Assembly (NCBI GenBank): GCA_000002445.1
Contig: CH464491.1
Span: forward strand, 1,984,001 to 2,048,000
DNA length: 64,000 nt
Direction: 5' to 3'
Origin: Trypanosoma brucei
Lineage: Eukaryota
Shown here: one piece after another, positions 15,613 to 51,957 of the stretch
Layout: every line of letters begins with the position of its first letter
Numbering within the stretch: position 1 is the stretch's first letter
Notes under the pieces: model-generated
What the model was told of the DNA's origin: nothing
The model's database searches: none
What the model saw: only the letters and a program-made list of their open reading frames with translations
Position numbers and translations under genes: made by a program

Positions 15613-18600
15613 TGAAATAAGTTATACGGCTGTTTCTTCATACATTGAAAAGGAAGAAAGCACTCGGTGCTGCTGTCAGTAGAAGCAGAAAATGAACGCA
15701 GAGCCACAAGGGGCTACTTGCAGACACCTCATGGCATTGATGCTAAAGTGTCTCAACAGCGTGACCGCATCTGAATAAGACATTACTCCTGGTAGTTACA
15801 CATTCCATCCCAAATCAAAATACAAACACGTGGAGTGGAAGGGAAGGGGAGGAGCACAAGAACAAACTGCGATCATGCCCGTAGAGAGGTCTTGGAGGGC
15901 AGGATAACTCGCTGACGATCGAATCTGCGCCATCCGCCAGAATAAGGCAATTCAACAAACACATGTAAGATTCCGCAAAAAAGATTACAGCGCTAAATGT
16001 TTACGTGCAGCGGCCCCTACAATTCTCTTGGGTCATTGACAGCACCTAGACTTCTCTTGTCAGCCACTCAGGCACATTTGTCCCCACCTTGTTTCCTTCA
16101 GGTGAGATATTTTTTTCACTTGTCCCCCCTACTCTGGAGCAACATTTGTTGCGCGGGTGTAACTCCCAAACTTTAGAACTCCCCACTGAAATTCATTACA
16201 CTGCAGTAGACATTCACCAGGATCACGACCGACCACCACGACGAAGCACACAACAAGGTGCTAGCTGGTGCTTATGATGTCATCCCGCCTTTGAGCACTC
16301 GATGCACACTCTTACTTTGGCGACTACGGGCTGCTTTTGAATAGTATTCGCTGTCTTTTAAAATACTAGGTGCTTGGCGGACCAAAGAGCTTTTTTTCTT
16401 TGGTGAAAGGGGGGTCAGACTGAAGAGGGGCCCACCGTTCATCCTCCCCCTAACACCATGGAAAAAGTTAATCACCATACAAGGTTTAACACCCTCTTTC
16501 AACAAGCCTTCTCCGTGGTTCATGGCGCTTTATCCGCAGTAGAGCTGACCGCACCCACGCGCACGCCGTTGGGAGTTATTTCCCCCTCTTGCTGGTCCTC
16601 GAATAAAAAGCATACCACGAAATCGGATAAACCCTGCTTTCGCTGGAGAATCAGCGGGCATTCCAGCGTACTCGATGCTAACTCAGGTGGTTGGCGACCC
16701 GTTAAGGAGGAAAGGCAACAACATCAGCTTTGGGGTTTGATAAGAGCGCCCACGCGACCTTCAGCACGTGCAGATGCGCTTTCTGGGATACCTGCAGTGT
16801 GTTTCCGTTTTTGAGCTCACTGTCCGAACTAGACACGTGCCCAACTTCATATGGATCGCGCAGGAGACCTGGTGTTCTCTCAAAGCCAAAGAGGGTGGCA
16901 TCGGCAAAACACCCGTACAATTAAAAATCTAGCCTTGCCATCGTGTCCACAGCTCCCTTGTGTGCGGAGGAGAGCAAACTCACGAGGATATCTTAATATC
17001 CGAGCAAGCGGCTGCTCCAAAGTGTAAAGAATACCGATACTTCTGGGTAATCGTATAGCGTCCGGCAACGTCGACAGGCGCTGTTTCCATCTCAGATAAT
17101 GCCTGTTGAGCTCATGATCGGAGACTGGTTGCGTTTGAACCTTGGTCCCGTGCGTTTCCTGTGGCCGTTAACCGTCATCCGACCACCGCTGGCGTGCCGT
17201 CTTCATAGGGGAACTCTTCATAACAGGGAATGCGCACAAAAAAGGAAAAAAAGCACAAAGAAACACCGAGGACGGCGGGAAGGTGTAGGCAGAGCGATTG
17301 CCATATCCTGGCGGATTTGTCAGGACGTCAGGTATTTCATCTAGAGCCGCGGTGTTAACGTTCCAGGGAAATGGAAAAAGGACGGAGTAATTCGAGGGAA
17401 CGGGGGGAGCCCCACGTCGGTACAGAAGAAGGAGCGTGGCAATAGAAGGTGCATCCATGTCGCTTGCAGGTGTTGCCACAAAAGAGTCAGGAAAGGGGGA
17501 AGAGAATGACGGTGTTTAGCGATTCATCATCCCCTCTAATTGGCGTAAAAGCTGCCCCCTGAGGTAAATGGGAGTACCTTGCAACACGCACGGAGAAGCA
17601 CAGCATAATTAACCGGAGGATGAATGCCTTTAGACCTGCAAAGGACCAAAAGCGGAAAGAGGAAGAAAAGTAACTTGGAGAGGGCGCCGTTTTCGAAATA
17701 CGCCAAATCAACCTCGTGTTTTGTATTCGCAGTGCCACGCGGTACAACCCCTTAAGCCGTCTGAACCGAGATTCTGAATCAATCTCAAGTGAAAGGTAGG
17801 AGCATTTCTGCCCCCTCGTAGCGGTTGTGGGGAAGGGGAGTGCCATCCCGAAATGCAGGTGGCGTGCCGTCAAACCCTACGAAACACGGTGTAGTAGTTC
17901 CCAAGGTACCTGTTCATTCTCCCTTAGTGACTCTCGACACTAGTGCTTTTAAGGCGTCACCACCCGGCGATCCTCTTCTTTTGTGCTACGCTGTGCGGTC
18001 AGACCTAGTAAGAATCGCGAACCCCGCGATGAATAAGCGTCTACAGGAAAAGGAAAGGAAAAGAAAAACGGCAGGGACTGTGATAATCGCACCGTTAGAG
18101 TGCCAACAGCGCGTGAATCAACTATAGTTGCCATGCCTCTGAGAAGAAGTTTGAGTAACGGAAGCTGCTGTTGAGATTCATGGACTTGTCGCGGGTGATC
18201 GCACCCCTCATGTACAGTTCTGGGTTGAAAAGAGAGTGAGAGGAGGGCAAGGCGAAGCAGATAGGCTTGATTTTCCCCGCGGCTCGTTTATTATTCCTTT
18301 TTCCTTCGCATTGCACCGGTAAGAACCCCGAAGGTAGCATTACATTTTCCCTGCTGCAGGGGCATGTGCTGCCGGTTGAGTCGAGCGTTGCATCGGGCTG
18401 TCTCACCGAGCCAAATGGTGTGGGTGTGCCACCACCTCTTCTCCGAGGAGTGGAGTTCCTAAGCATCGCCCATCCGGCTGGCCCCAGAAATATTATTTCA
18501 GTCTTTTAGGTTACAGTGGTGAAGTGCCACCCGAGCTCATATTGGCCGAACCGTAGGCGGAAGGGGAATTGTGAACTTTCATGGCCCTCTCTTTTTTTTT

Positions 18601-19039
18601 TCCTTGGTGACCGCCGCCTTCCCTGAGCCCTCTCTGATTGGGGGGAGCGGAAGGGGATCCCGCCGGTTTCATCTCCGTCGTTGGAGAGTTACTTCCCCGG
18701 CCCCTTCGATCGATGTTTCCTCGTCCGTTTCTTTGGTTTATCGCACCTGTGTGGACGGGTTGTTGGTTTCTGGTACTTCGTCTTTTGATGTTCGAGCACG
18801 CCCTTTAACCTCTAGGTTGGACTCCTTCGACGCACGCATGTTCTTCCACAGTGCGGGCGCCGAGGTTTTTTTGTTTTGGCACCCCTTCTACCTGCGTGTA
18901 CAGCCAACGTGGATCAGCTGGTGGACACAGTTGGCCTCCGGGCGCGTCCTCTTTTAGCGGTATTCTCTGAAGGCGGGTGGTTAAGACTCATTTTTTATTT
19001 GTGCCGCTGTTACTTCAATGTGATCCTGACGCATCGTGC

Positions 19040-19300
19040 ATCTGCTTTGTTTGTGCTAGCTGATCGTTGCCACTGTTGGTTTGTTGCTGTCCCTATGTTG
19101 TTGTCTCTTACAGGGTGTGGTGGTAGTGTTTGCTTTACGTTCGTATGGTGAATGCCTTCTACGATGTTTTGATTTCCGGACGTTTTGGGTCTTTGGTTTT
19201 GTTAGTGTTTAGTGTTGACAAAGTTGTTAACGTTGGTGCTGCAGCCGACGTGGGACTGTGTGGGCCGTCGGTACTATTGGTGTGTGTAGCTCTCCCTCTT
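19040..19300 (+). promoter_or_regulatory. GT-rich tract on the plus strand about 300-500 bp upstream of the first plus-strand gene. Candidate GT-rich pol II initiation element of the type described for T. brucei TSSs.
   Basis: Read directly from the sequence: gtttgtgctagctgatcgttgccactgttggtttgttgctgtccctatgttgttgtctctta...gtgtggtggtagtgtttgctttacgttcgtatggtg...gttttgggtctttggttttgttagtgtttagtgttg. A weaker CA-rich mirror lies on the plus strand (GT-rich on the minus strand) near 15800-16260, on the side of the minus-strand unit. Confidence 0.4.
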
Positions 19301-19370
19301 GGCTTCGTTTCAACAGCCCTTTCACGTAGCAGGTAACGTGGTTGCTGTACCTTTGAGATGTATATATATA

Positions 19371-19385
19371 TATATTGGAAAGAAT
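19371..19385. repeat. (TA)7 microsatellite inside the strand-switch region.
   Basis: Read directly: tatatatatatatat. Confidence 0.85.
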
Positions 19386-19566
19386 TGTCCTACAAAAGGG
19401 ACAAGGGCAGCTGATTTACTTGAAGTAGAGAGGGTCGTTGGGAAGAGGGTTGTTTGGCTTCATTCTCCCAGATTAGCTAATTGGCGACAAAACGCAGTTT
19501 GCTACCATCTTTTTTGCTCTGCCTTTTCATGTTCTCCTACACTCTATAAAGCTGTTGCTAAACGCG

Positions 19567-20322
19567 ATGGCCAAACTTGGGACCTTGTACTCCGATGATA
19601 AAAGCGTAGAAAAATATTACGGTCAACGCCATCGGTTGTGGTCTCGTTTTGACGACGGCGTTTGGATGACGAAGAAAGGATGGTTCGAGGTGACGCCTGA
19701 AGGCATTGCCCGATCTTCTGCTTCCCTGCATGACGTTCTCAAAGATAAGGGATGTTGTTTGGATTTGTTTTGCGGCTGTGGCGGTGACACAGTCCAATTG
19801 GCTCAGGTTTTTGAAAAGGTAATAGCTGTAGATATAGATCCCGATGCTATAGAAGCAGCCAAAAAGAATGCCGAGGTATATGGTGTTTCGACTCGAGTTA
19901 CATTTCTGTGCGCCGACTACAGGACTCTAAAACCTGAAAACTTTTCCGTTAACGCTGTTCACTGCTCTCCCCCATGGGGCGGTGAACTGTATGCTGGTGC
20001 GCCGTTTTTCGATTTGCAAAATTCGCTTTGTGCCTCAAATGGCATAAAAATTTCGGACTTTTATGAACTGCTGTCAAAATTTTCGAATAATATTACCATG
20101 TTTCTACCGAGAAACACTCTTCTGTATTCAGTAGTTCCACCAAAATTTGCTTGGACCTTTGCGGTGTGTAGACACTATGCCAACGAAAAGTGCAAAGGGA
20201 TTACTATTTTGTGTGGCGATTTGGTAGCGTCTTCCCAGCTGAAAGCACCCTCAGCGCCAGTGTATTCAATACGAAATAAGATTCCACTTTGTGTAGAGAA
20301 GCGAGGGCGTGGGTCTTTGTGA
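19567..20322 (+). CDS. TGS1: Trimethylguanosine synthase (cap guanine-N2 methyltransferase), a compact 251-aa methyltransferase-only form.
   Basis: The ORF-track start at 19555 is TTG. The first ATG is at 19567 (MAKLGTLY), preceded by a polyY tract at 19506-19545 and an AG. Motifs: FEVTPE, VLDLFCGCGGDTVQLA (SAM motif I), VIAVDIDP, and SPPWGG (cap-guanine binding). Confidence 0.85.
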   Translation: MAKLGTLYSDDKSVEKYYGQRHRLWSRFDDGVWMTKKGWFEVTPEGIARSSASLHDVLKDKGCCLDLFCGCGGDTVQLAQVFEKVIAVDIDPDAIEAAKKNAEVYGVSTRVTFLCADYRTLKPENFSVNAVHCSPPWGGELYAGAPFFDLQNSLCASNGIKISDFYELLSKFSNNITMFLPRNTLLYSVVPPKFAWTFAVCRHYANEKCKGITILCGDLVASSQLKAPSAPVYSIRNKIPLCVEKRGRGSL

Positions 20323-46741: not shown

Positions 46742-47553
46742 AAAGTGGAAGGGGGAAGGTTATGATCAGCACTGCCTTTTCCACTTCTGGTGTTGTGTTA
46801 AATTATTCAAGATTGATTCATTCCGTAAACCTTCTTGTCCCTCCAGGAGATTGCATACTTATTCTTCGGGTGCCCCACCGCCTACCTTTGCGATGAAAAG
46901 ATTTGAGGTACCGCTTCCCTCTATACCATATAACGAAACAAATATGCACCAACTGCAGTGATCTGTGGGAACAAAGATAATGGACCTACTGAAGTTAGCG
47001 GAGGGAGCGTGTGTTGACGCTGATGGATTAACTCTAGCAGTACAATTTAAATGGAGAAGACAAATGCCTTTATTCTTATTGCCCTCCCGATTTAATCGGC
47101 AATTCGCGTATTTTGGCGGCAGAATTGGTAGTTACAGGTACCGCAATAAGCTGTTTGTTTAGGTTTCATATCGTTCTGATCCCTTCTGATTGTTGCAGTT
47201 TGATGAGTGACCAACACATCTGTTAACTCTAAGTGGTTGTGTGCGCGTGGGGGAGGGGAAGAGGGAAGGGGAGTGAAGGTGCCATCCCCGATGCGATTTA
47301 TGAGTGCAGTTAAGGGTAGTTTTGTACCACACCTTCTCAACTGTACGGTGGCTGTGTTACACTACCCAGGTCCAATTTTTTCACGTCGCTGCTCCCTACG
47401 TCCTTCTCTTTCTCCACTGCTGCGCCGTACTTGTGCATGCTCCTTACCTGGTGCCCGTACTTTTTTCATTTTTCCGTCGTTATTTTGCGTTGCCGTAGAA
47501 AGGTTGTTCTTTTCTGAGTCGCGGCGGCTTTCACTGATCACAGTGCAAAGACA

Positions 47554-50500
47554 ATGATCTCCTCCAGTCAAGGGGGGCCCAAACCCCGAGGAGGCGCGAA
47601 GCGGGGTGTTGCTGAACTGCGAGGAATTGCGGTCGCCACAGCCACAAATGCGCAACTTCGCGTGTTGAGTTATAACTTTAACATCCTCCCCAGGGGTTGT
47701 GGCGGCTTTCAACGGGAACGCATCAGCTCGTTTCTTGAGACTGTCGACCAATATGATGTGATAATGCTGCAGGAGGTCTATGCAGCCAGTGTGTTGCCTT
47801 ACTTTCTGCAGAACCGCATGTGCTTTCAGAAGATGCTGGTGGACGAGCTGGTGCTTCGTGGTTTTCAGCACTACGCCATATCGAAGCAGCCATCGTACAC
47901 TACTATGTTGCGCAATAATGTTTTCTCAGACAATGGACTTATCATTGCATCGCGGTTTCCAATAGGCCAGCGAGGGTCGTACACGTTCCGCAGCCACGAG
48001 CGTGCGGTGCAGTCTGTTCGACGAGGTTGCCTGTTTGCCGAGGTGAAGGTGCCCTTGACCAGTGGTGGGGAGGAGTCAATAATTTTCTTTAATGTACATC
48101 TTCGACAGGAGGATAGCGATGACGTAACCTCAGAGCACGTAAAGGAAACACGCCAGTTTGCTGCCTCCGTCATTCGAAACATGTGCTCAAACCCTGAAGA
48201 TGTGGCACAAATTCCCTTTGTTTTGGCTGGAGACTTTGATGTTAACGGTATCAATTTACACAACGTTGGTCAACCCACAAAAAAGTATGAGGATCTTTTG
48301 GGCGAACTGCAGGCTCTCGGGTCTGGTGTACGTGAGGCCGTGTTTGATGCCCAGCACCGCCATCCGCCAACAAGACCAACGGAGTTGTTCTTCCCGACAC
48401 AATCAAAGTTGGTTCGCAATTCCTTTTCGCCCCAAAGGCAAGACTACTTCTTCGTCTCGCACACCGTTGCCGTTAAGAATCCGGATATCCACAAGTTTGT
48501 TTCAGACAGCCAGCAGCCGTATACATACCTCTCCGATCATTTTGGCGTCTCCGCCGTACTTGCAATCCCCCAAACGTCGAAGCAAAGACACAAAAGATGG
48601 ATGCCGCTCACTGAGTCAAATGCACCAGAATCCGAAGAAACGGTTAACGAACACTCAAACCCCATATTCAGTATCATAGTGGAGATCATCGTTCTATGTA
48701 CCGTGTCGTGGGCGGCGTTCTGTTTTAGCTGGGTTGCGCTTTTGTTCTCCCTGCTTGTGGGTGTGCTTGTTTGGTACTGCCTTTCTCCTATCCATGAGCT
48801 TAGGAGCGAACGGAAATTCACGCGGGTGGGGAACAGCAATGCACATGGAGGGGAAGGTTGTGTGTCGGATCTGCCGCGAGAGTACGAGAGTCTGAAACAT
48901 GCCAACAGTGTTGGTGAAATGTGGAGGCGGGCCGTGTCTCTCCACTCAGCGCAGAGGTGCCTCGGACAAAAGAACGATGCCGGTGTGCCCGAGTGGCTCA
49001 CATTTGTGTCTGTCGATGCGCGGGCTCAAGAGTTGGCCTCCGGTCTCGCTGCTCTTGGTGTTGGCCCCGGTGATGTCATCGGTGTAGACTGTGATGCCAG
49101 TGTTGATTCAACTGTTCTTGAACTGGCTTGCGCTACATACGGAATCGCAACGTTGGCTTTGGTGGGAAAGGGCTCTACAATTAGGAATCTCATTGATGAA
49201 TATGATATTAAGGTAGTTTTTGCTGCCCGCAATGCCGTTGGGGCGATATTGACTTGCCGATCACGATCTTTAGAGACGCTGGTGTGTATGCATTCTTCCC
49301 ACGATAGTACAGACTGCATGGTTGCACGCGATGTTTGCATAACGCTTATTTCGTACAACGAAGTCTTCAGTAAAGGGCGATCACAACCTGTCTTGTTGCG
49401 GCCCGTGTGCGATGACACCACCCTTTACACTATGGTGGTTGATCCTTCGACCTCCAATGGCAATCTCAAAGTTGTTCGGGTGACCCACGCAGATGCCCTT
49501 CGTGCTATTCGCACGCTTGTTGGCACTGCCGTGCTCCCAAATACTCAGCATAAACACCTACTCGTACATTACACTCCCTTCGCGATGCTGTTCAACCGTT
49601 TGTTTGTACTGGGGCTCTTTGCTCACGGCAGTGCTGTGGCAACGACGCCGGTGGCGGCATGTGCGAGAGCGTTTGCCACGATACAACCCACCATCGTGGT
49701 AGCAACACCCTCGTTGTTTTCAACGAGTGCTGTCCAGTTGCGACGCAGGAACGAGCGTTATTGGCCCATCTTCTCATGGATCTTCGAGCAGATTTACCAT
49801 CTCCGGCTTTTTCTCATCAATACCCACAACCGAGATTCACTAATATTGCGAACAATCTTCTTCCGCGGGACACAGCACCTTTTTGGTGGGAATGTCGAAA
49901 AAATCGTTGTGTGCTCTTCTGAAGAAAGCTTATCCGACACACTAGCAGAGCACATCGTTGTTTGTTACACCCCGTGCTTGCGGGAGGTATTTTTTCTGCC
50001 CTCTGAGGGAGTTTTTTGTGTGGATGGGGTTCCAGCACCCAACATTCACGTGCACCTTGAGCCGTTCGACGAACCCTCAAAAGAGGCGAAAATCGGAAGC
50101 CTGGTACTCAGTTGCGAGGGCAGAAAGGAGCGAACCCTTCCCATAGCGGCGATGTGGACTGGTACTCGAACGCTTCGACTCATCGGACCTCCCGACGGCG
50201 TTTTGTTACCTGTAAGATCCGAGTACGTGCTGGCGGCGTCTTTGGAGCGTGTATTTTCCCAATCACGCTACGTCAACGACGTTTTTCTGTATGCCGAGCC
50301 GTCGCGCCCCATTATTGCCATCATTTCACCCAATCGTGATACCGTTGATTTCGAGTGGAGGCAAAGCCGGGAAGGGGAGGTCGCCGGTGAAGATAATCTG
50401 CTATCGAACTGGGCGAAGTTCGCCAGCTTTGCATCCGATCTTCTCACGGCAGACTTCCAAGTGATTGCAAAGAGGAACGCACTGCACGAGTCGAATGTCC

Positions 50501-51957
50501 CTTCATATGTGCACATCCACCCCCATGCGTTTAAGAAGCATGACAGTTTTTTGACCCCGTATGGGGGAATCCGTCGGAATTCACTGAAATCGTACTTCAA
50601 GGTTGTTATCGAAGGGTTTTACAACGACGCAACCCCGACCGCCCTCCCAACACCAGGTCAAATAATCGAAAGCGACGAGGAGGGACAAGCCTATGAGAGG
50701 GATCAGAAGCCGTTTTCACTTAATACGCCAATCTCGATTGATGTTGGGGGAACATTCGCGAAACTTGTTTATGTGCAACCCCCCGGTGATTTCAAAGTAC
50801 CTCACTATGTGGTGAAGGAGGCCGCGGTACTCGCTGAGGGGTTTAATGTACGAATGCTTGACCTCCTCGATAATGCAGAGGGTATGAAGAGGTTGCTCAA
50901 TGATGACCCGTTCTCCACGGTTGGTACGCTGCAGTTTGCCAAGATGTCATCGAAGTGTATTCCTGACTTTATGTCGTATATAGTTGAAAGCCAAATGTTA
51001 AGTTACTACACCAAGGAATACCGCAATACTCTGCGCGTCACAGGTGGTGGAGCCTTTAAGTACGCTGCTCTCGCCAAAAAGATGGATTTGAATTTTTCTG
51101 TGATGAGGGAGATGAGTGCAGTTGTACATGGCCTCGGTGTTGTTATAGGAAGGGCCCCGGAGACCATCTTTACTGTGGACCCGGCCACTGGTGAACGCCA
51201 TCCACACCGCTTGAAGAGCCCCCCTGGAGAGCCGTTTTCCCCTTATCCGTGCTTGCTTGTGAATATTGGCTCAGGCATTTCCATAATCAAGTGTCTTGGT
51301 CCCGATGGGTCGCACGTGCGTATCGGAGGAAGTCCAATGGGTGGAGCGACATTTTGGGGTCTTGTGCGCACCATGACAGCCGTTACGTCGTGGGAGGAAA
51401 TAACTGAGACGATGCGGCTCGACGGGCCGGGTGACAACAGAAATGTGGATCTTCTTGTTGGTGATATTTACGGCTACAATGCGAAGGATCTCCCTCCCAT
51501 GCTTTCAGTAGACACGGTTGCCAGCACGTTTGGTAAGCTTGGCACTGAACGCTTTTATGAATCACAGGGTAATGTGGACAGGTTGTACGCGTCGTCCAGC
51601 GAAGACCTGAGCGGTGCAGTTTCGTCTTCCCCTGATTCGAACCCAACGCTGCACGACGCGGTCGCCCCAACGTTGGCGTCACATGGAAAGACATCGGAGA
51701 TCGACATTGTGAGGTCCTTGTTGAACATGATATCGAGCAATGTCACTCAACTTGCCTACCTTCATAGCCGCGTGCAGGATGTACACAACATCTTTTTTGC
51801 CGGTGGCTTTGTCCGCAACAATCCCATTGTTTGGAGCCATATCAGTTCCTTTATGGCGTACTGGTCAAAAGGTGAGTGCCATGCACATTTCTTGGGGCAT
51901 GACAGTCACCTCGGAGCCCTGGGCGCGGCGACAAACACAGAGGAACATGTGTCCTGA
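47554..51957 (+). CDS. PANK: Tri-domain fusion protein (1467 aa), in N-to-C order. (1) An N-terminal endonuclease/exonuclease/phosphatase (EEP, sphingomyelinase-like) domain. (2) A TM segment followed by an acyl-CoA-synthetase (AMP-binding)-like domain with degenerate catalytic motifs. (3) A C-terminal type II (eukaryotic/fumble) pantothenate kinase.
   Basis: ATG verified at 47554. EEP region: LRVLSYNFNILPRGCGG...YDVIMLQEV...LAGDFDVNG...SDHFGV. TM: IIVEIIVLCTVSWAAFCFSWVALLFSLLVGVLVWY. AMP-binding-like region: VDARAQELASGLAALGVGPGDVIGV...LKVVRVTHADAL...VHYTPFAMLF, with no intact T-S-G-T-T-G P-loop. PanK region: ISIDVGGTFAKLVYV...GGGAFKYA...NIGSGISIIK. Confidence 0.8.
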   Translation: MISSSQGGPKPRGGAKRGVAELRGIAVATATNAQLRVLSYNFNILPRGCGGFQRERISSFLETVDQYDVIMLQEVYAASVLPYFLQNRMCFQKMLVDELVLRGFQHYAISKQPSYTTMLRNNVFSDNGLIIASRFPIGQRGSYTFRSHERAVQSVRRGCLFAEVKVPLTSGGEESIIFFNVHLRQEDSDDVTSEHVKETRQFAASVIRNMCSNPEDVAQIPFVLAGDFDVNGINLHNVGQPTKKYEDLLGELQALGSGVREAVFDAQHRHPPTRPTELFFPTQSKLVRNSFSPQRQDYFFVSHTVAVKNPDIHKFVSDSQQPYTYLSDHFGVSAVLAIPQTSKQRHKRWMPLTESNAPESEETVNEHSNPIFSIIVEIIVLCTVSWAAFCFSWVALLFSLLVGVLVWYCLSPIHELRSERKFTRVGNSNAHGGEGCVSDLPREYESLKHANSVGEMWRRAVSLHSAQRCLGQKNDAGVPEWLTFVSVDARAQELASGLAALGVGPGDVIGVDCDASVDSTVLELACATYGIATLALVGKGSTIRNLIDEYDIKVVFAARNAVGAILTCRSRSLETLVCMHSSHDSTDCMVARDVCITLISYNEVFSKGRSQPVLLRPVCDDTTLYTMVVDPSTSNGNLKVVRVTHADALRAIRTLVGTAVLPNTQHKHLLVHYTPFAMLFNRLFVLGLFAHGSAVATTPVAACARAFATIQPTIVVATPSLFSTSAVQLRRRNERYWPIFSWIFEQIYHLRLFLINTHNRDSLILRTIFFRGTQHLFGGNVEKIVVCSSEESLSDTLAEHIVVCYTPCLREVFFLPSEGVFCVDGVPAPNIHVHLEPFDEPSKEAKIGSLVLSCEGRKERTLPIAAMWTGTRTLRLIGPPDGVLLPVRSEYVLAASLERVFSQSRYVNDVFLYAEPSRPIIAIISPNRDTVDFEWRQSREGEVAGEDNLLSNWAKFASFASDLLTADFQVIAKRNALHESNVPSYVHIHPHAFKKHDSFLTPYGGIRRNSLKSYFKVVIEGFYNDATPTALPTPGQIIESDEEGQAYERDQKPFSLNTPISIDVGGTFAKLVYVQPPGDFKVPHYVVKEAAVLAEGFNVRMLDLLDNAEGMKRLLNDDPFSTVGTLQFAKMSSKCIPDFMSYIVESQMLSYYTKEYRNTLRVTGGGAFKYAALAKKMDLNFSVMREMSAVVHGLGVVIGRAPETIFTVDPATGERHPHRLKSPPGEPFSPYPCLLVNIGSGISIIKCLGPDGSHVRIGGSPMGGATFWGLVRTMTAVTSWEEITETMRLDGPGDNRNVDLLVGDIYGYNAKDLPPMLSVDTVASTFGKLGTERFYESQGNVDRLYASSSEDLSGAVSSSPDSNPTLHDAVAPTLASHGKTSEIDIVRSLLNMISSNVTQLAYLHSRVQDVHNIFFAGGFVRNNPIVWSHISSFMAYWSKGECHAHFLGHDSHLGALGAATNTEEHVS

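What the first reader, a model, noticed from the sequence alone, without database searches (positions are those of the whole stretch)
47554..51957. Pantothenate kinase embedded in a 1467-aa fusion with a phosphoesterase domain and a degenerate acyl-CoA-synthetase-like domain
The C-terminal 400 aa form a clear type II pantothenate kinase, the first step of CoA synthesis. It is preceded in the same ORF by an EEP (sphingomyelinase/Mg-dependent phosphoesterase) domain, a transmembrane segment, and a region with AMP-binding enzyme topology. The canonical P-loop (TSGTTGxPKG) of that region is not recognisable, which suggests a pseudo-enzyme or regulatory CoA/acyl-adenylate sensing module. Fusing a CoA-consumer-like domain to the CoA-pathway gatekeeper suggests feedback regulation or membrane tethering of CoA synthesis. 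The combination is unusual outside kinetoplastids.
Basis: partly seen in the sequence, partly recalled or inferred. Interest (0 to 1): 0.55.

Follow-up and report, generated by a model that had tools for sequence, protein, structure and literature searches.

The report
Membrane-anchored trypanosome PanK with pseudo-ACSL
The trypanosome enzyme that starts coenzyme A synthesis is one real 1467-residue protein joined to a sphingomyelinase-like domain, a membrane hairpin and a catalytically dead acyl-CoA-synthetase domain; that front module is much older than the fusion, and its function is untested.

Summary
ORF 47554-51957 (+) encodes 1467 aa with four parts:
- an EEP phosphoesterase domain (aa 34-336)
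- one ~45-aa hydrophobic region that fits a two-helix hairpin (aa 370-414)
- a complete but degenerate ANL/ACSL fold (aa 442-1027)
- an intact type II pantothenate kinase (aa 1059-1460)

The window is Trypanosoma brucei-group, 2 aa from a T. equiperdum protein. Public records already name the gene "pantothenate kinase subunit, putative", and some product names list all three domains.

What this work adds:
- The ACSL-like domain lacks adenylation motifs A3, A5, A7 and A8 (and the A10 Lys here) but is conserved well above the linkers, so it is a constrained pseudoenzyme.
- The triple fusion also occurs in early kinetoplastids (Papus) and a diplonemid.
- The EEP-hairpin-pseudoACSL module exists without PanK in Amoebozoa and an apusomonad, already degenerate there. 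It therefore did not evolve as a PanK regulator.
- An assembly artefact is excluded.

Function (membrane tethering, possible acyl-CoA or lipid sensing) remains inferred. This is an uncharacterised variant of known enzyme kinds, of moderate interest.

The parts
47554..51957 (+). Complete ORF, 1467 aa: the EEP - TM hairpin - pseudo-ACSL - PanK fusion protein ('pantothenate kinase subunit, putative')
   Evidence: It differs by 2 aa from T. equiperdum P0001. Full-length orthologues occur across Trypanosomatidae.
47653..48561 (+). Neutral-sphingomyelinase-like EEP (Mg-dependent phosphodiesterase) domain, aa 34-336. Catalytic set: N41, E74, H182, D227, D229 (N in most orthologues), D297, D328, H329.
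48661..48795 (+). The only hydrophobic region of the protein, aa 370-414 ('IFSIIVEIIVLCTVSWAAFCFSWVALLFSLLVGVLVWYCL'). At about 45 aa it fits two short helices forming a membrane hairpin.
   Evidence: Kyte-Doolittle scans. Hydrophobicity is conserved but sequence is not (17% identity to Leishmania). A comparable 40-50 aa hydrophobic region lies between EEP and ANL in every family member examined.
48877..50634 (+). Complete ANL (ACSL/CAR-like) fold with N and C subdomains, aa 442-1027. It is catalytically degenerate, i.e. a pseudo-acyl-CoA synthetase.
   Evidence: Pfam AMP-binding, partial match. Profile against PDB: CAR A-domain 6oz1, 4e-10, matching both subdomains. AF2 model pLDDT 84.7. Foldseek: 6oz1 1e-31, TM 0.71 over 646 columns, then T. 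thermophilus LC-FACS 1ult. Motif losses are shown. Identity to Leishmania is 39-46% against 11-21% for linkers.
49444..49473 (+). Site of the lost A3 P-loop: aa 631-640 'PSTSNGNLKV', aligned to canonical 'TSGTTGxPKG'
   Evidence: HMMER alignment to CAR 6oz1. MAFFT alignment with 7 canonical ACSLs. Regex scan: 10 of 12 canonical ACSL hits have the motif, 0 of 21 family members do.
50512..50541 (+). His cluster 'HIHPHAFKKH' (H-x-H-P-H-x-F-x-x-H), aa 987-996, in the ANL C-subdomain. It is found in the PanK-fused kinetoplastid-type forms examined (partial in Papus, absent in the diplonemid).
   Evidence: H987 is present in 32/32, H989 in 31/32, P990 in 32/32, H991 in 31/32 and H996 in 29/32 orthologues. 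It is absent from canonical ACSLs and from the amoebozoan two-domain proteins.
50728..51933 (+). Type II (eukaryotic, Fumble) pantothenate kinase domain, aa 1059-1460, with a low-complexity insert at about aa 1331-1382. Key residues: D1063-G-G-T, E1186 (= PANK3 E138), N1237-IGSG-S1243, R1256 (= PANK3 R207).
   Evidence: Pfam Fumble 2.4e-90. PDB hits: Cab1 4e-46 and PANK1-3, with residue-level alignments. These residues are invariant in 32 orthologues.
47399..47475 (+). Two polypyrimidine tracts (47399-47415 and 47460-47475), 80-155 nt upstream of the ATG. They are candidates for the trans-splicing acceptor signal of this gene.
   Evidence: There are no tracts of 16 nt or more inside the ORF, 2 upstream and 7 in the downstream intergenic region. 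That these are splice signals is inferred, not shown.

Best explanation
This is one genuine gene. It encodes the pantothenate kinase of T. brucei-group trypanosomes as a membrane-anchored, four-part protein.

Shown:
- The C-terminal type II PanK has every catalytic residue tested and should be the active CoA-pathway entry enzyme.
- The N-terminal EEP domain is of the neutral-sphingomyelinase type. Its catalytic set is nearly complete, with one substitution (N229D) specific to the brucei lineage.
- The middle domain has a full ACSL/ANL fold but has lost A3, A5, A7, A8 and, in this protein, the A10 Lys. It cannot adenylate a fatty acid, yet it is under purifying selection.
- EEP + hairpin + pseudo-ACSL is an old eukaryotic module. 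It is found without PanK in Amoebozoa and an apusomonad. PanK was appended to it in the lineage leading to diplonemids and kinetoplastids.

Inferred:
- The ~45-aa hydrophobic segment forms a two-helix hairpin, as in SMPD2. There is no signal peptide. All three globular domains would therefore sit on the cytosolic face of an endomembrane.
- PanK, a dimer in all known type II enzymes, is thereby held at a membrane next to a lipid phosphodiesterase.
- The pseudo-ACSL most likely acts as a non-catalytic ligand-binding or docking module (acyl chain, acyl-CoA or CoA) that couples membrane lipid or acyl-CoA status to its two neighbours.
For: - ORF and domains.
- PanK catalytic residues aligned to Cab1 and PANK1-3, and invariant in the family.
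- ANL fold complete.
- Motifs lost in all 13 family members aligned, while the 7 canonical ACSLs in the same alignment keep them.
- Constraint: the ANL domain is 39-46% identical to Leishmania, against 11-21% for linkers and 17% for the TM region.
- A single hydrophobic region of hairpin length is conserved in position across the family.
- Distribution: exhaustive HMMER search, organism names, Pfam on outgroups.
- Euglena gracilis PanK transcript P0203 has Fumble only, preceded by an N-terminal hydrophobic segment. This hints that membrane anchoring of PanK predates the fusion.
- No stand-alone trypanosomatid PanK appears among the 120 best additional PanK hits.
- The protein is detected in bloodstream-form T. 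brucei by MS (bioRxiv 10.1101/2025.11.17.688794).
Against: - No biochemical, localisation or knock-down data for this protein were found in the searchable literature.
- Ligand binding by the pseudo-ACSL is pure inference. The FACS signature region that shapes the fatty-acid pocket (A7-A8) is itself degenerate.
- The EEP domain may be impaired in this species (N229D). It has lost catalytic residues in some lineages: Phytomonas D227S, and several substitutions in the P0032/P0037 clade. EEP catalysis is therefore not universally required.
- Hairpin versus single-pass topology was not modelled.
- TIGR00555 (equivalog) scores 211.6, below its 247.6 cut-off, probably because of the inserts.
- A weaker second PanK in trypanosomatids is not rigorously excluded.
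Confidence: 0.6

Rival explanations
1. Tether only. The EEP-hairpin-pseudoACSL part is just a membrane anchor or oligomerisation scaffold inherited by fusion. The pseudo-ACSL binds no metabolite, and PanK is regulated only through its own acetyl/acyl-CoA site, as in other type II PanKs.
For: - The ATP-site motifs of the ANL domain are gone.
- The module predates the PanK fusion, so it was not shaped for PanK control.
- Euglena PanK appears to have a simple N-terminal hydrophobic anchor instead, which suggests that location is the selected trait.
Against: - A 590-residue domain kept at 39-46% identity over the trypanosomatid radiation, and recognisable back to Amoebozoa, is more constraint than a spacer needs.
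- A His cluster largely confined to the PanK-fused kinetoplastid forms appears in the ANL C-subdomain, suggesting new functional contacts.
Confidence: 0.28
2. Kinase-phosphatase couple. The EEP domain acts on a CoA-pathway phosphoester (for example 4'-phosphopantetheine, 4'-phosphopantothenate, or the 3'-phosphate of CoA/acyl-CoA presented by the pseudo-ACSL). This would be functionally analogous to the DUF89 phosphatase fused to PanK in human PANK4 and plant PANK2.
For: - PanK-phosphatase fusions are an established theme (own knowledge: PANK4, AtPANK2). One search lists a chytrid protein with PF03630 + PF01937.
Against: - Sequence-profile similarity is specifically to sphingomyelinases.
- The best structural match, SMPD2, shares the EEP + two-TM layout.
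- The EEP-pseudoACSL pair exists without PanK in several lineages, so its substrate need not be in the CoA pathway.
Confidence: 0.07
3. The ANL domain is still an enzyme with non-canonical chemistry, for example acting on pre-formed acyl-adenylate, or as an acyl-CoA thioesterase or transferase.
For: The fold is complete with both subdomains. Some amoebozoan members keep the A5 'TET' and parts of A4.
Against: All nucleotide-binding and hinge motifs (A3, A7 Asp, A8 Arg) are lost family-wide, and the A10 Lys is not conserved even among Trypanosoma species. No alternative conserved catalytic constellation was identified apart from the uncharacterised His cluster.
Confidence: 0.04
4. Assembly or gene-model artefact that joins separate genes.
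For: None found.
Against: - Collinear full-length orthologues occur in more than 30 species on long contigs.
- Single Trinity transcripts (EukProt records) from Papus and Namystynia carry all three domains.
- The ORF has no Ns and no polypyrimidine tracts of 16 nt or more, while the flanking intergenic regions do.
Confidence: 0.01

Closest known systems
Eukaryotic type II pantothenate kinases (human PANK1-3, yeast Cab1; Pfam Fumble PF03630)
   Same: The C-terminal 400 aa align end to end. The ASKHA DxGGT motif, the catalytic Glu (PANK3 E138 = E1186), the NIGSGxS loop and the Arg (PANK3 R207 = R1256) are all present.
   Different: It is preceded by about 1050 residues of unrelated domains and a membrane hairpin. 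It has a ~50-aa low-complexity insert. It scores below the TIGR00555 equivalog cut-off.
PanK fusion proteins with a second pathway-related domain: human PANK4 and Arabidopsis PANK2 (PanK + DUF89 phosphatase)
   Same: A type II PanK domain is fused in one polypeptide to a metal-dependent phosphoesterase.
   Different: The partner here is an EEP/nSMase-like domain at the N-terminus, not a C-terminal DUF89 (there is no PF01937 hit). A pseudo-ACSL and a TM hairpin intervene. Unlike PANK4 (own knowledge: E138V/R207W pseudokinase), the kinase residues are intact here.
Neutral sphingomyelinases with C-terminal membrane helices (human SMPD2/nSMase1, yeast ISC1, T. brucei nSMase) and bacterial SMase C
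   Different: Identity is only 15-20%. Position 229 is Asp rather than Asn in this species. The substrate is unknown. The helices are followed by two more large domains rather than ending the protein.
Long-chain acyl-CoA synthetases (ACSL/FACS) and carboxylic-acid-reductase A-domains (ANL superfamily)
   Same: Full two-subdomain ANL fold of the long ACSL/CAR type. The ACSL-like C-terminal signature '...HPxxF...LTPxxKxxR...YF' is recognisable. It sits directly after a membrane segment, as in ACSLs.
   Different: A3 P-loop, A5 YGxTE, A7 TGD and A8 DRxK are lost, and the A10 Lys is lost in T. brucei. It is therefore not a functional adenylating enzyme.
EEP-TM-pseudoACSL proteins of Amoebozoa and Thecamonas (e.g. 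Balamuthia KAL6079083.1, annotated 'Long-chain-fatty-acid--CoA ligase 6'; Thecamonas XP_013758655.1)
   Same: The first three parts are collinear, with end-to-end HMM matches. The P-loop, A7 and A8 are degenerate and the EEP catalytic set is intact.
   Different: They have no PanK domain. Their ANL domain is less eroded (full-length Pfam match, E down to 1e-51). They lack the His cluster. Some isoforms have an extra C-terminal hydrophobic tail. None is characterised.

Membership tests
Type II pantothenate kinase (Fumble, PF03630 / TIGR00555) | Significant full-length match to the family HMM | tested here: met
   Pfam Fumble scores 303.6 bits against a cut-off of 28.5, covering profile positions 2-332 of 334. 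The stricter TIGR00555 equivalog scores 211.6, below its 247.6 cut-off, so subfamily-level 'equivalog' status is not reached.
Type II pantothenate kinase (Fumble, PF03630 / TIGR00555) | ASKHA phosphate-binding motif DxGGT, and the catalytic Glu and Arg (PANK3 E138, R207) that are mutated in the pseudokinase PANK4 | tested here: met
   D1063-V-G-G-T, E1186 and R1256 align to these residues in PANK1-3 and Cab1. They are invariant in 32 orthologues. The roles of these residues are taken from own knowledge of the PANK3/PANK4 literature.
Type II pantothenate kinase (Fumble, PF03630 / TIGR00555) | ATP-dependent phosphorylation of pantothenate; feedback inhibition by acetyl/acyl-CoA | not testable with these tools
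   This needs an enzyme assay.
Neutral sphingomyelinase / SMase C branch of the EEP superfamily | EEP four-layer alpha/beta sandwich fold | tested here: met
Neutral sphingomyelinase / SMase C branch of the EEP superfamily | Closest relatives by sequence profile are sphingomyelinases rather than nucleases or inositol phosphatases | tested here: met
   The six best PDB profile hits are all SMases, with E from 3e-9 to 4e-4. The structural margin over TDP2 and CNOT6L is small, so the assignment rests mainly on sequence.
Neutral sphingomyelinase / SMase C branch of the EEP superfamily | Complete catalytic set (Mg-binding Glu, His, Asp-x-Asn, Asp-His) | tested here: inconclusive
   E74, H182, D227, D328 and H329 are present, but the Asn of D-x-N is Asp (D229) in this protein. 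Most orthologues and outgroups have Asn.
Neutral sphingomyelinase / SMase C branch of the EEP superfamily | Hydrolysis of sphingomyelin or a related phosphodiester lipid | not testable with these tools
   This needs an enzyme assay.
ANL superfamily adenylating enzymes / long-chain acyl-CoA synthetases | Two-subdomain ANL fold | tested here: met
   AF2 model pLDDT 84.7. Foldseek to CAR A-domain 6oz1: E 1e-31, TM 0.71, 646 columns. T. thermophilus LC-FACS 1ult: 2.6e-24.
ANL superfamily adenylating enzymes / long-chain acyl-CoA synthetases | A3 P-loop [ST][ST]G[ST][TS]GxPKG | tested here: not met
   The aligned segment is 'PSTSNGNLKV'. The motif is absent in 0 of 21 family members and present in 10 of 12 canonical ACSL hits scanned.
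ANL superfamily adenylating enzymes / long-chain acyl-CoA synthetases | A5 YGxTE, A7 TGD (ribose-binding Asp), A8 hinge DRxK, A10 catalytic Lys | tested here: not met
   A5 aligns to 'EVFFLPSE', A7 to 'LPIA', A8 to 'GPPD', and A10 'TPTFKLKR' to 'TPYGGIRR'. The domain is therefore not filed as a functional ACSL.
PanK-DUF89 bifunctional proteins (PANK4 / AtPANK2 type) | DUF89 (PF01937) phosphatase domain fused to PanK | tested here: not met
   There is no PF01937 hit at E up to 1. The resemblance is functional only (kinase plus phosphoesterase in one chain).

The most novel reading that the evidence does not exclude
EEP(nSMase-like)-hairpin-pseudoACSL would be an unrecognised, ancient eukaryotic family of membrane proteins, present in Amoebozoa, apusomonads and Euglenozoa and possibly more widely. 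In it, a dead acyl-CoA synthetase serves as an acyl-CoA or fatty-acyl sensor that gates a lipid phosphodiesterase. The ancestor of diplonemids and kinetoplastids then captured PanK onto this sensor, so that the first and presumably rate-setting step of CoA synthesis is controlled directly by membrane lipid or acyl-CoA status. The His cluster largely confined to the kinetoplastid fusions (aa 987-996) would be the new coupling or metal site.
Probability: 0.15. Interest if true: 0.7.

Novelty: new variant of a known kind. Interest (0 to 1): 0.45.

Why it matters
- CoA synthesis is required by T. brucei. Inhibitors that act on its CoA synthesis kill trypomastigotes, and the effect is rescued by pathway intermediates (PMC5114727).
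- PanK is the pathway's entry step. If, as the searches suggest, this fusion is the only PanK in trypanosomatids, all CoA synthesis passes through a protein with about 1050 residues that human PanKs lack. That would offer parasite-specific handles for inhibition or mislocalisation.
- More generally, it is a clean natural example of a pseudoenzyme (a dead ACSL) kept under selection for roughly the age of eukaryotic supergroups.
- It is also a 'Rosetta-stone' fusion that links CoA supply to a sphingomyelinase-like lipid enzyme at a membrane. It converts a vague idea (PanK regulated by lipid status) into constructs that can be made and assayed.

Tried and rejected
- **Artefact or merged gene model:** rejected.
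rejected. An alignment with 7 canonical ACSLs shows real loss of A3, A5, A7 and A8.
- **'Degeneration is a kinetoplastid adaptation to PanK':** rejected. PanK-less amoebozoan homologues are already degenerate.
- **AFDB fold search:** unavailable.
- **Literature:** six searches found no paper that discusses this architecture or assays the enzyme. Only passing mentions turned up.
- **Gene neighbourhood:** unrelated genes in a polycistronic array, so uninformative, as expected for trypanosomatids.
- **First Pfam batch on outgroups:** failed on a size limit and was repeated.

Full report
**1. Observation**

Pfam finds three domains, all far above their gathering cut-offs:
- Exo_endo_phos2, aa 39-334, E 1.5e-29
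- AMP-binding, aa 479-725, E 1e-18, matching only profile positions 19-270 of 384
- Fumble, aa 1060-1459, E 2.4e-90

NCBIfam gives type II PanK (TIGR00555, 211.6 bits, below its 247.6 equivalog cut-off) and weak matches to carboxylic acid reductase and FadD-type ligases. By sequence, the best solved relatives of the C-terminus are yeast Cab1 and human PANK1-3.

The whole protein has one hydrophobic region, aa ~368-414.

The protein differs at two residues (Q219E, L670I) from a T. equiperdum protein named 'pantothenate kinase subunit, putative'. The window is therefore T. brucei-group DNA. The gene is already in public databases, and two product names (T. vivax, L. naiffi) spell out all three Pfam domains.

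**2. It is one gene, not an artefact**

- Collinear full-length orthologues (1445-1580 aa) occur throughout Trypanosomatidae, many on contigs of 0.1-2.4 Mb. All three domains are conserved in a 32-sequence alignment.
- Single Trinity transcripts (EukProt records) from Papus ankaliazontas (P0039) and Namystynia karyoxenos (P0185) carry EEP + AMP-binding + Fumble.
- The ORF has no Ns and no polypyrimidine tract of 16 nt or more. There are two such tracts 80-155 nt upstream of the ATG and seven in the downstream intergenic region.
- The neighbours are unrelated genes, all on the + strand: an NYD-SP28 flagellar protein, an RPB9-like protein, an MFS transporter and an LRR-DSP phosphatase. This is typical of a trypanosomatid polycistron and says nothing about function.

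**3. PanK domain**

Residue-level alignments to Cab1 and PANK1-3 show:
- the ASKHA phosphate-1 motif: D1063-V-G-G-T against D-I-G-G-T
- the catalytic Glu: 'mrEMsavvhGL' against 'klDELdclvkGL', so E1186 corresponds to PANK3 E138
- the NIGSGxS loop
- the Arg: 'vRigGspmGGaTF' against 'kRvtGtslGGGTF', so R1256 corresponds to PANK3 R207

All of these are invariant in 32 orthologues. From my own knowledge of the PANK literature, these Glu and Arg residues are the ones replaced in the pseudokinase PANK4, so this domain should be active.

A PanK-domain search found no named stand-alone trypanosomatid PanK among the best 120 additional hits. That is consistent with this being the only PanK, but it does not prove it.

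**4. EEP domain**

- A 12-sequence profile of aa 30-345 hits only sphingomyelinases at the top of the PDB list: B. cereus SMase C 3e-9, human nSMase2 6e-8, S. aureus beta-hemolysin 6e-7.
- The AF2 model (pLDDT 79, pTM 0.85) has an EEP fold.
- Foldseek does not separate the EEP subfamilies.
- SMPD2 shares the layout of an EEP domain followed by two membrane helices.

The catalytic set N41/E74/H182/D227/D297/D328/H329 is present. The Asn of the D-x-N motif is Asp in this species (D229) and Asn in T. congolense, Leishmania and nearly all outgroups. A few lineages have lost more: Phytomonas D227S, P0031 D227N, and the environmental P0032/P0037 clade at E74, H182 and N229.

**5. ACSL-like domain**

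The AF2 model of aa 440-1030 is confident (pLDDT 84.7, pTM 0.83). It superposes over 646 columns on carboxylic-acid-reductase A-domains (E 1e-31, TM 0.71) and then on T. thermophilus long-chain acyl-CoA synthetase. The profile matches both the N and C subdomains of CAR. The fold is therefore complete.

A MAFFT alignment with seven canonical ACSLs from the same search shows these replacements:

| Motif | Canonical | This protein |
|---|---|---|
| A3 | TSGTTGxPKG | PSTSNGNLKV |
| A5 | GYGxTE | EVFFLPSE |
| A7 | TGD | LPIA |
| A8 | DRxK | GPPD |
| A10 | TPTFKLKR | TPYGGIRR |

The A10 Lys is kept in Leishmania but not in several Trypanosoma species. A regex scan finds the P-loop in 10 of 12 canonical hits and in none of 21 family members.

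The domain is nevertheless 39-46% identical between T. brucei and L. donovani. The linkers are 11-21% identical and the TM region 17%. It is a pseudoenzyme under constraint.

**6. Evolutionary context (the main addition)**

An exhaustive HMMER search with aa 1-1050, followed by name look-ups and Pfam scans, gave these results:
- The triple fusion is present in the early-branching kinetoplastid Papus and in the diplonemid Namystynia. The Trypanoplasma borreli transcript (P0038) is truncated at its 5' end but is consistent with the same architecture.
- EEP-TM-ANL proteins without PanK exist in Amoebozoa (Balamuthia, Copromyxa, Pyxidicula), in the apusomonad Thecamonas, and in several unnamed environmental eukaryotes.
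- All of these match the trypanosomatid ANL profile strongly. All lack A3, A7 and A8. Most keep an intact EEP catalytic set. All have a 40-50 aa hydrophobic region between the two domains.
- The amoebozoan ANL domains are less eroded. They give a full-length Pfam match with E down to 1e-51, and Copromyxa and Pyxidicula retain the A5 'TET'.
- A Euglena gracilis transcript (P0203, 506 aa) has only Fumble, preceded by an N-terminal hydrophobic segment.

The simplest reading is that an old two-domain membrane protein (nSMase-like + pseudo-ACSL) acquired a C-terminal PanK in the common ancestor of diplonemids and kinetoplastids, after euglenids diverged. The dating is tentative because euglenid sampling is a single transcript.

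**7. Mechanism**

What is shown and what is inferred are set out under 'best explanation'. In brief, I infer a cytosol-facing, hairpin-anchored protein, probably dimeric through PanK. In it, an active PanK sits beside a lipid phosphodiesterase, and the dead ACSL acts as a binding or docking module.

'Membrane tethering' is better supported.

Other readings were considered and weighted: a pure tether, a CoA-pathway phosphatase analogous to DUF89, and residual non-canonical catalysis.

**8. Comparison and novelty**

The parts belong to well-known families: type II PanK, the nSMase branch of EEP, and the ANL fold. The gene model is public.

I found no paper that analyses the architecture or assays the protein. 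It is only mentioned as detected in bloodstream-form MS and in a T. cruzi phosphoproteome GO term. T. brucei CoA synthesis has been shown to be chemically vulnerable (PMC5114727).

I rate this as a new, uncharacterised variant of known kinds, and of moderate interest. The combination is not shocking, since PanK-phosphatase fusions exist. But the ancient pseudo-ACSL module and the parasite-specific extension of an essential enzyme are concrete and testable.

Noticed in passing
window 50512-50541 (aa 987-996): The His cluster H-x-H-P-H-x-F-x-x-H in the ANL C-subdomain is invariant or nearly so in the PanK-fused kinetoplastid-type forms (partial in Papus, absent in the diplonemid). It is absent from canonical ACSLs and from the PanK-less amoebozoan homologues. 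It could be a metal site or an interface with PanK.
   Followed up: partly
window 48238-48240 (aa 229): The Asn of the EEP D-x-N motif is Asp in the T. brucei / T. equiperdum protein (and in P0027). T. congolense, T. cruzi, Leishmania and almost all outgroups have Asn. EEP activity may be altered specifically in the brucei group.
   Followed up: partly
P0203 (Euglena gracilis transcript EG_transcript_3070), aa 1-50: The Euglena PanK is a stand-alone Fumble protein. Its first ~28 residues are strongly hydrophobic ('MSPFPWSLALQLIVVIGLAAWFVYFLIQ') and lie directly before the DIGG motif. This suggests a signal-anchor, and that membrane attachment of PanK may predate the fusion in Euglenozoa.
   Followed up: no
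P0189 aa ~1079-1099; P0192 aa ~1087-1106: The longer isoforms of the Copromyxa and Pyxidicula two-domain proteins end in an extra hydrophobic segment resembling a tail anchor. The kinetoplastid fusions have PanK at that position instead.
   Followed up: no
L001 423-1529 (environmental contig Ga0609847_1197): In the unnamed kinetoplastid-like contig that encodes P0032, the gene immediately upstream of the fusion, on the same strand, is a choline/ethanolamine kinase. This may be a coincidence within a polycistron.
   Followed up: no
P0032 and P0037 (environmental triple-fusion proteins): This clade keeps PanK and the pseudo-ACSL but has lost several EEP catalytic residues (H182R/A, N229G, and E74G in P0037). 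In some lineages both non-PanK domains therefore look catalytically dead.
   Followed up: partly
window ~16000-20000: GC skew changes sign at about 18 kb, negative before and positive after. All large ORFs from 37 kb onward are on the + strand. This is probably a divergent strand-switch region between two polycistronic units.
   Followed up: no
window 47362-47871 (-), 48158-48679 (+), 48537-49001 (-): ORFs of 154-173 aa overlap the PanK-fusion ORF in other frames or on the other strand. They start with GTG or TTG, and no evidence of coding was sought or seen. They are most likely spurious.
   Followed up: no
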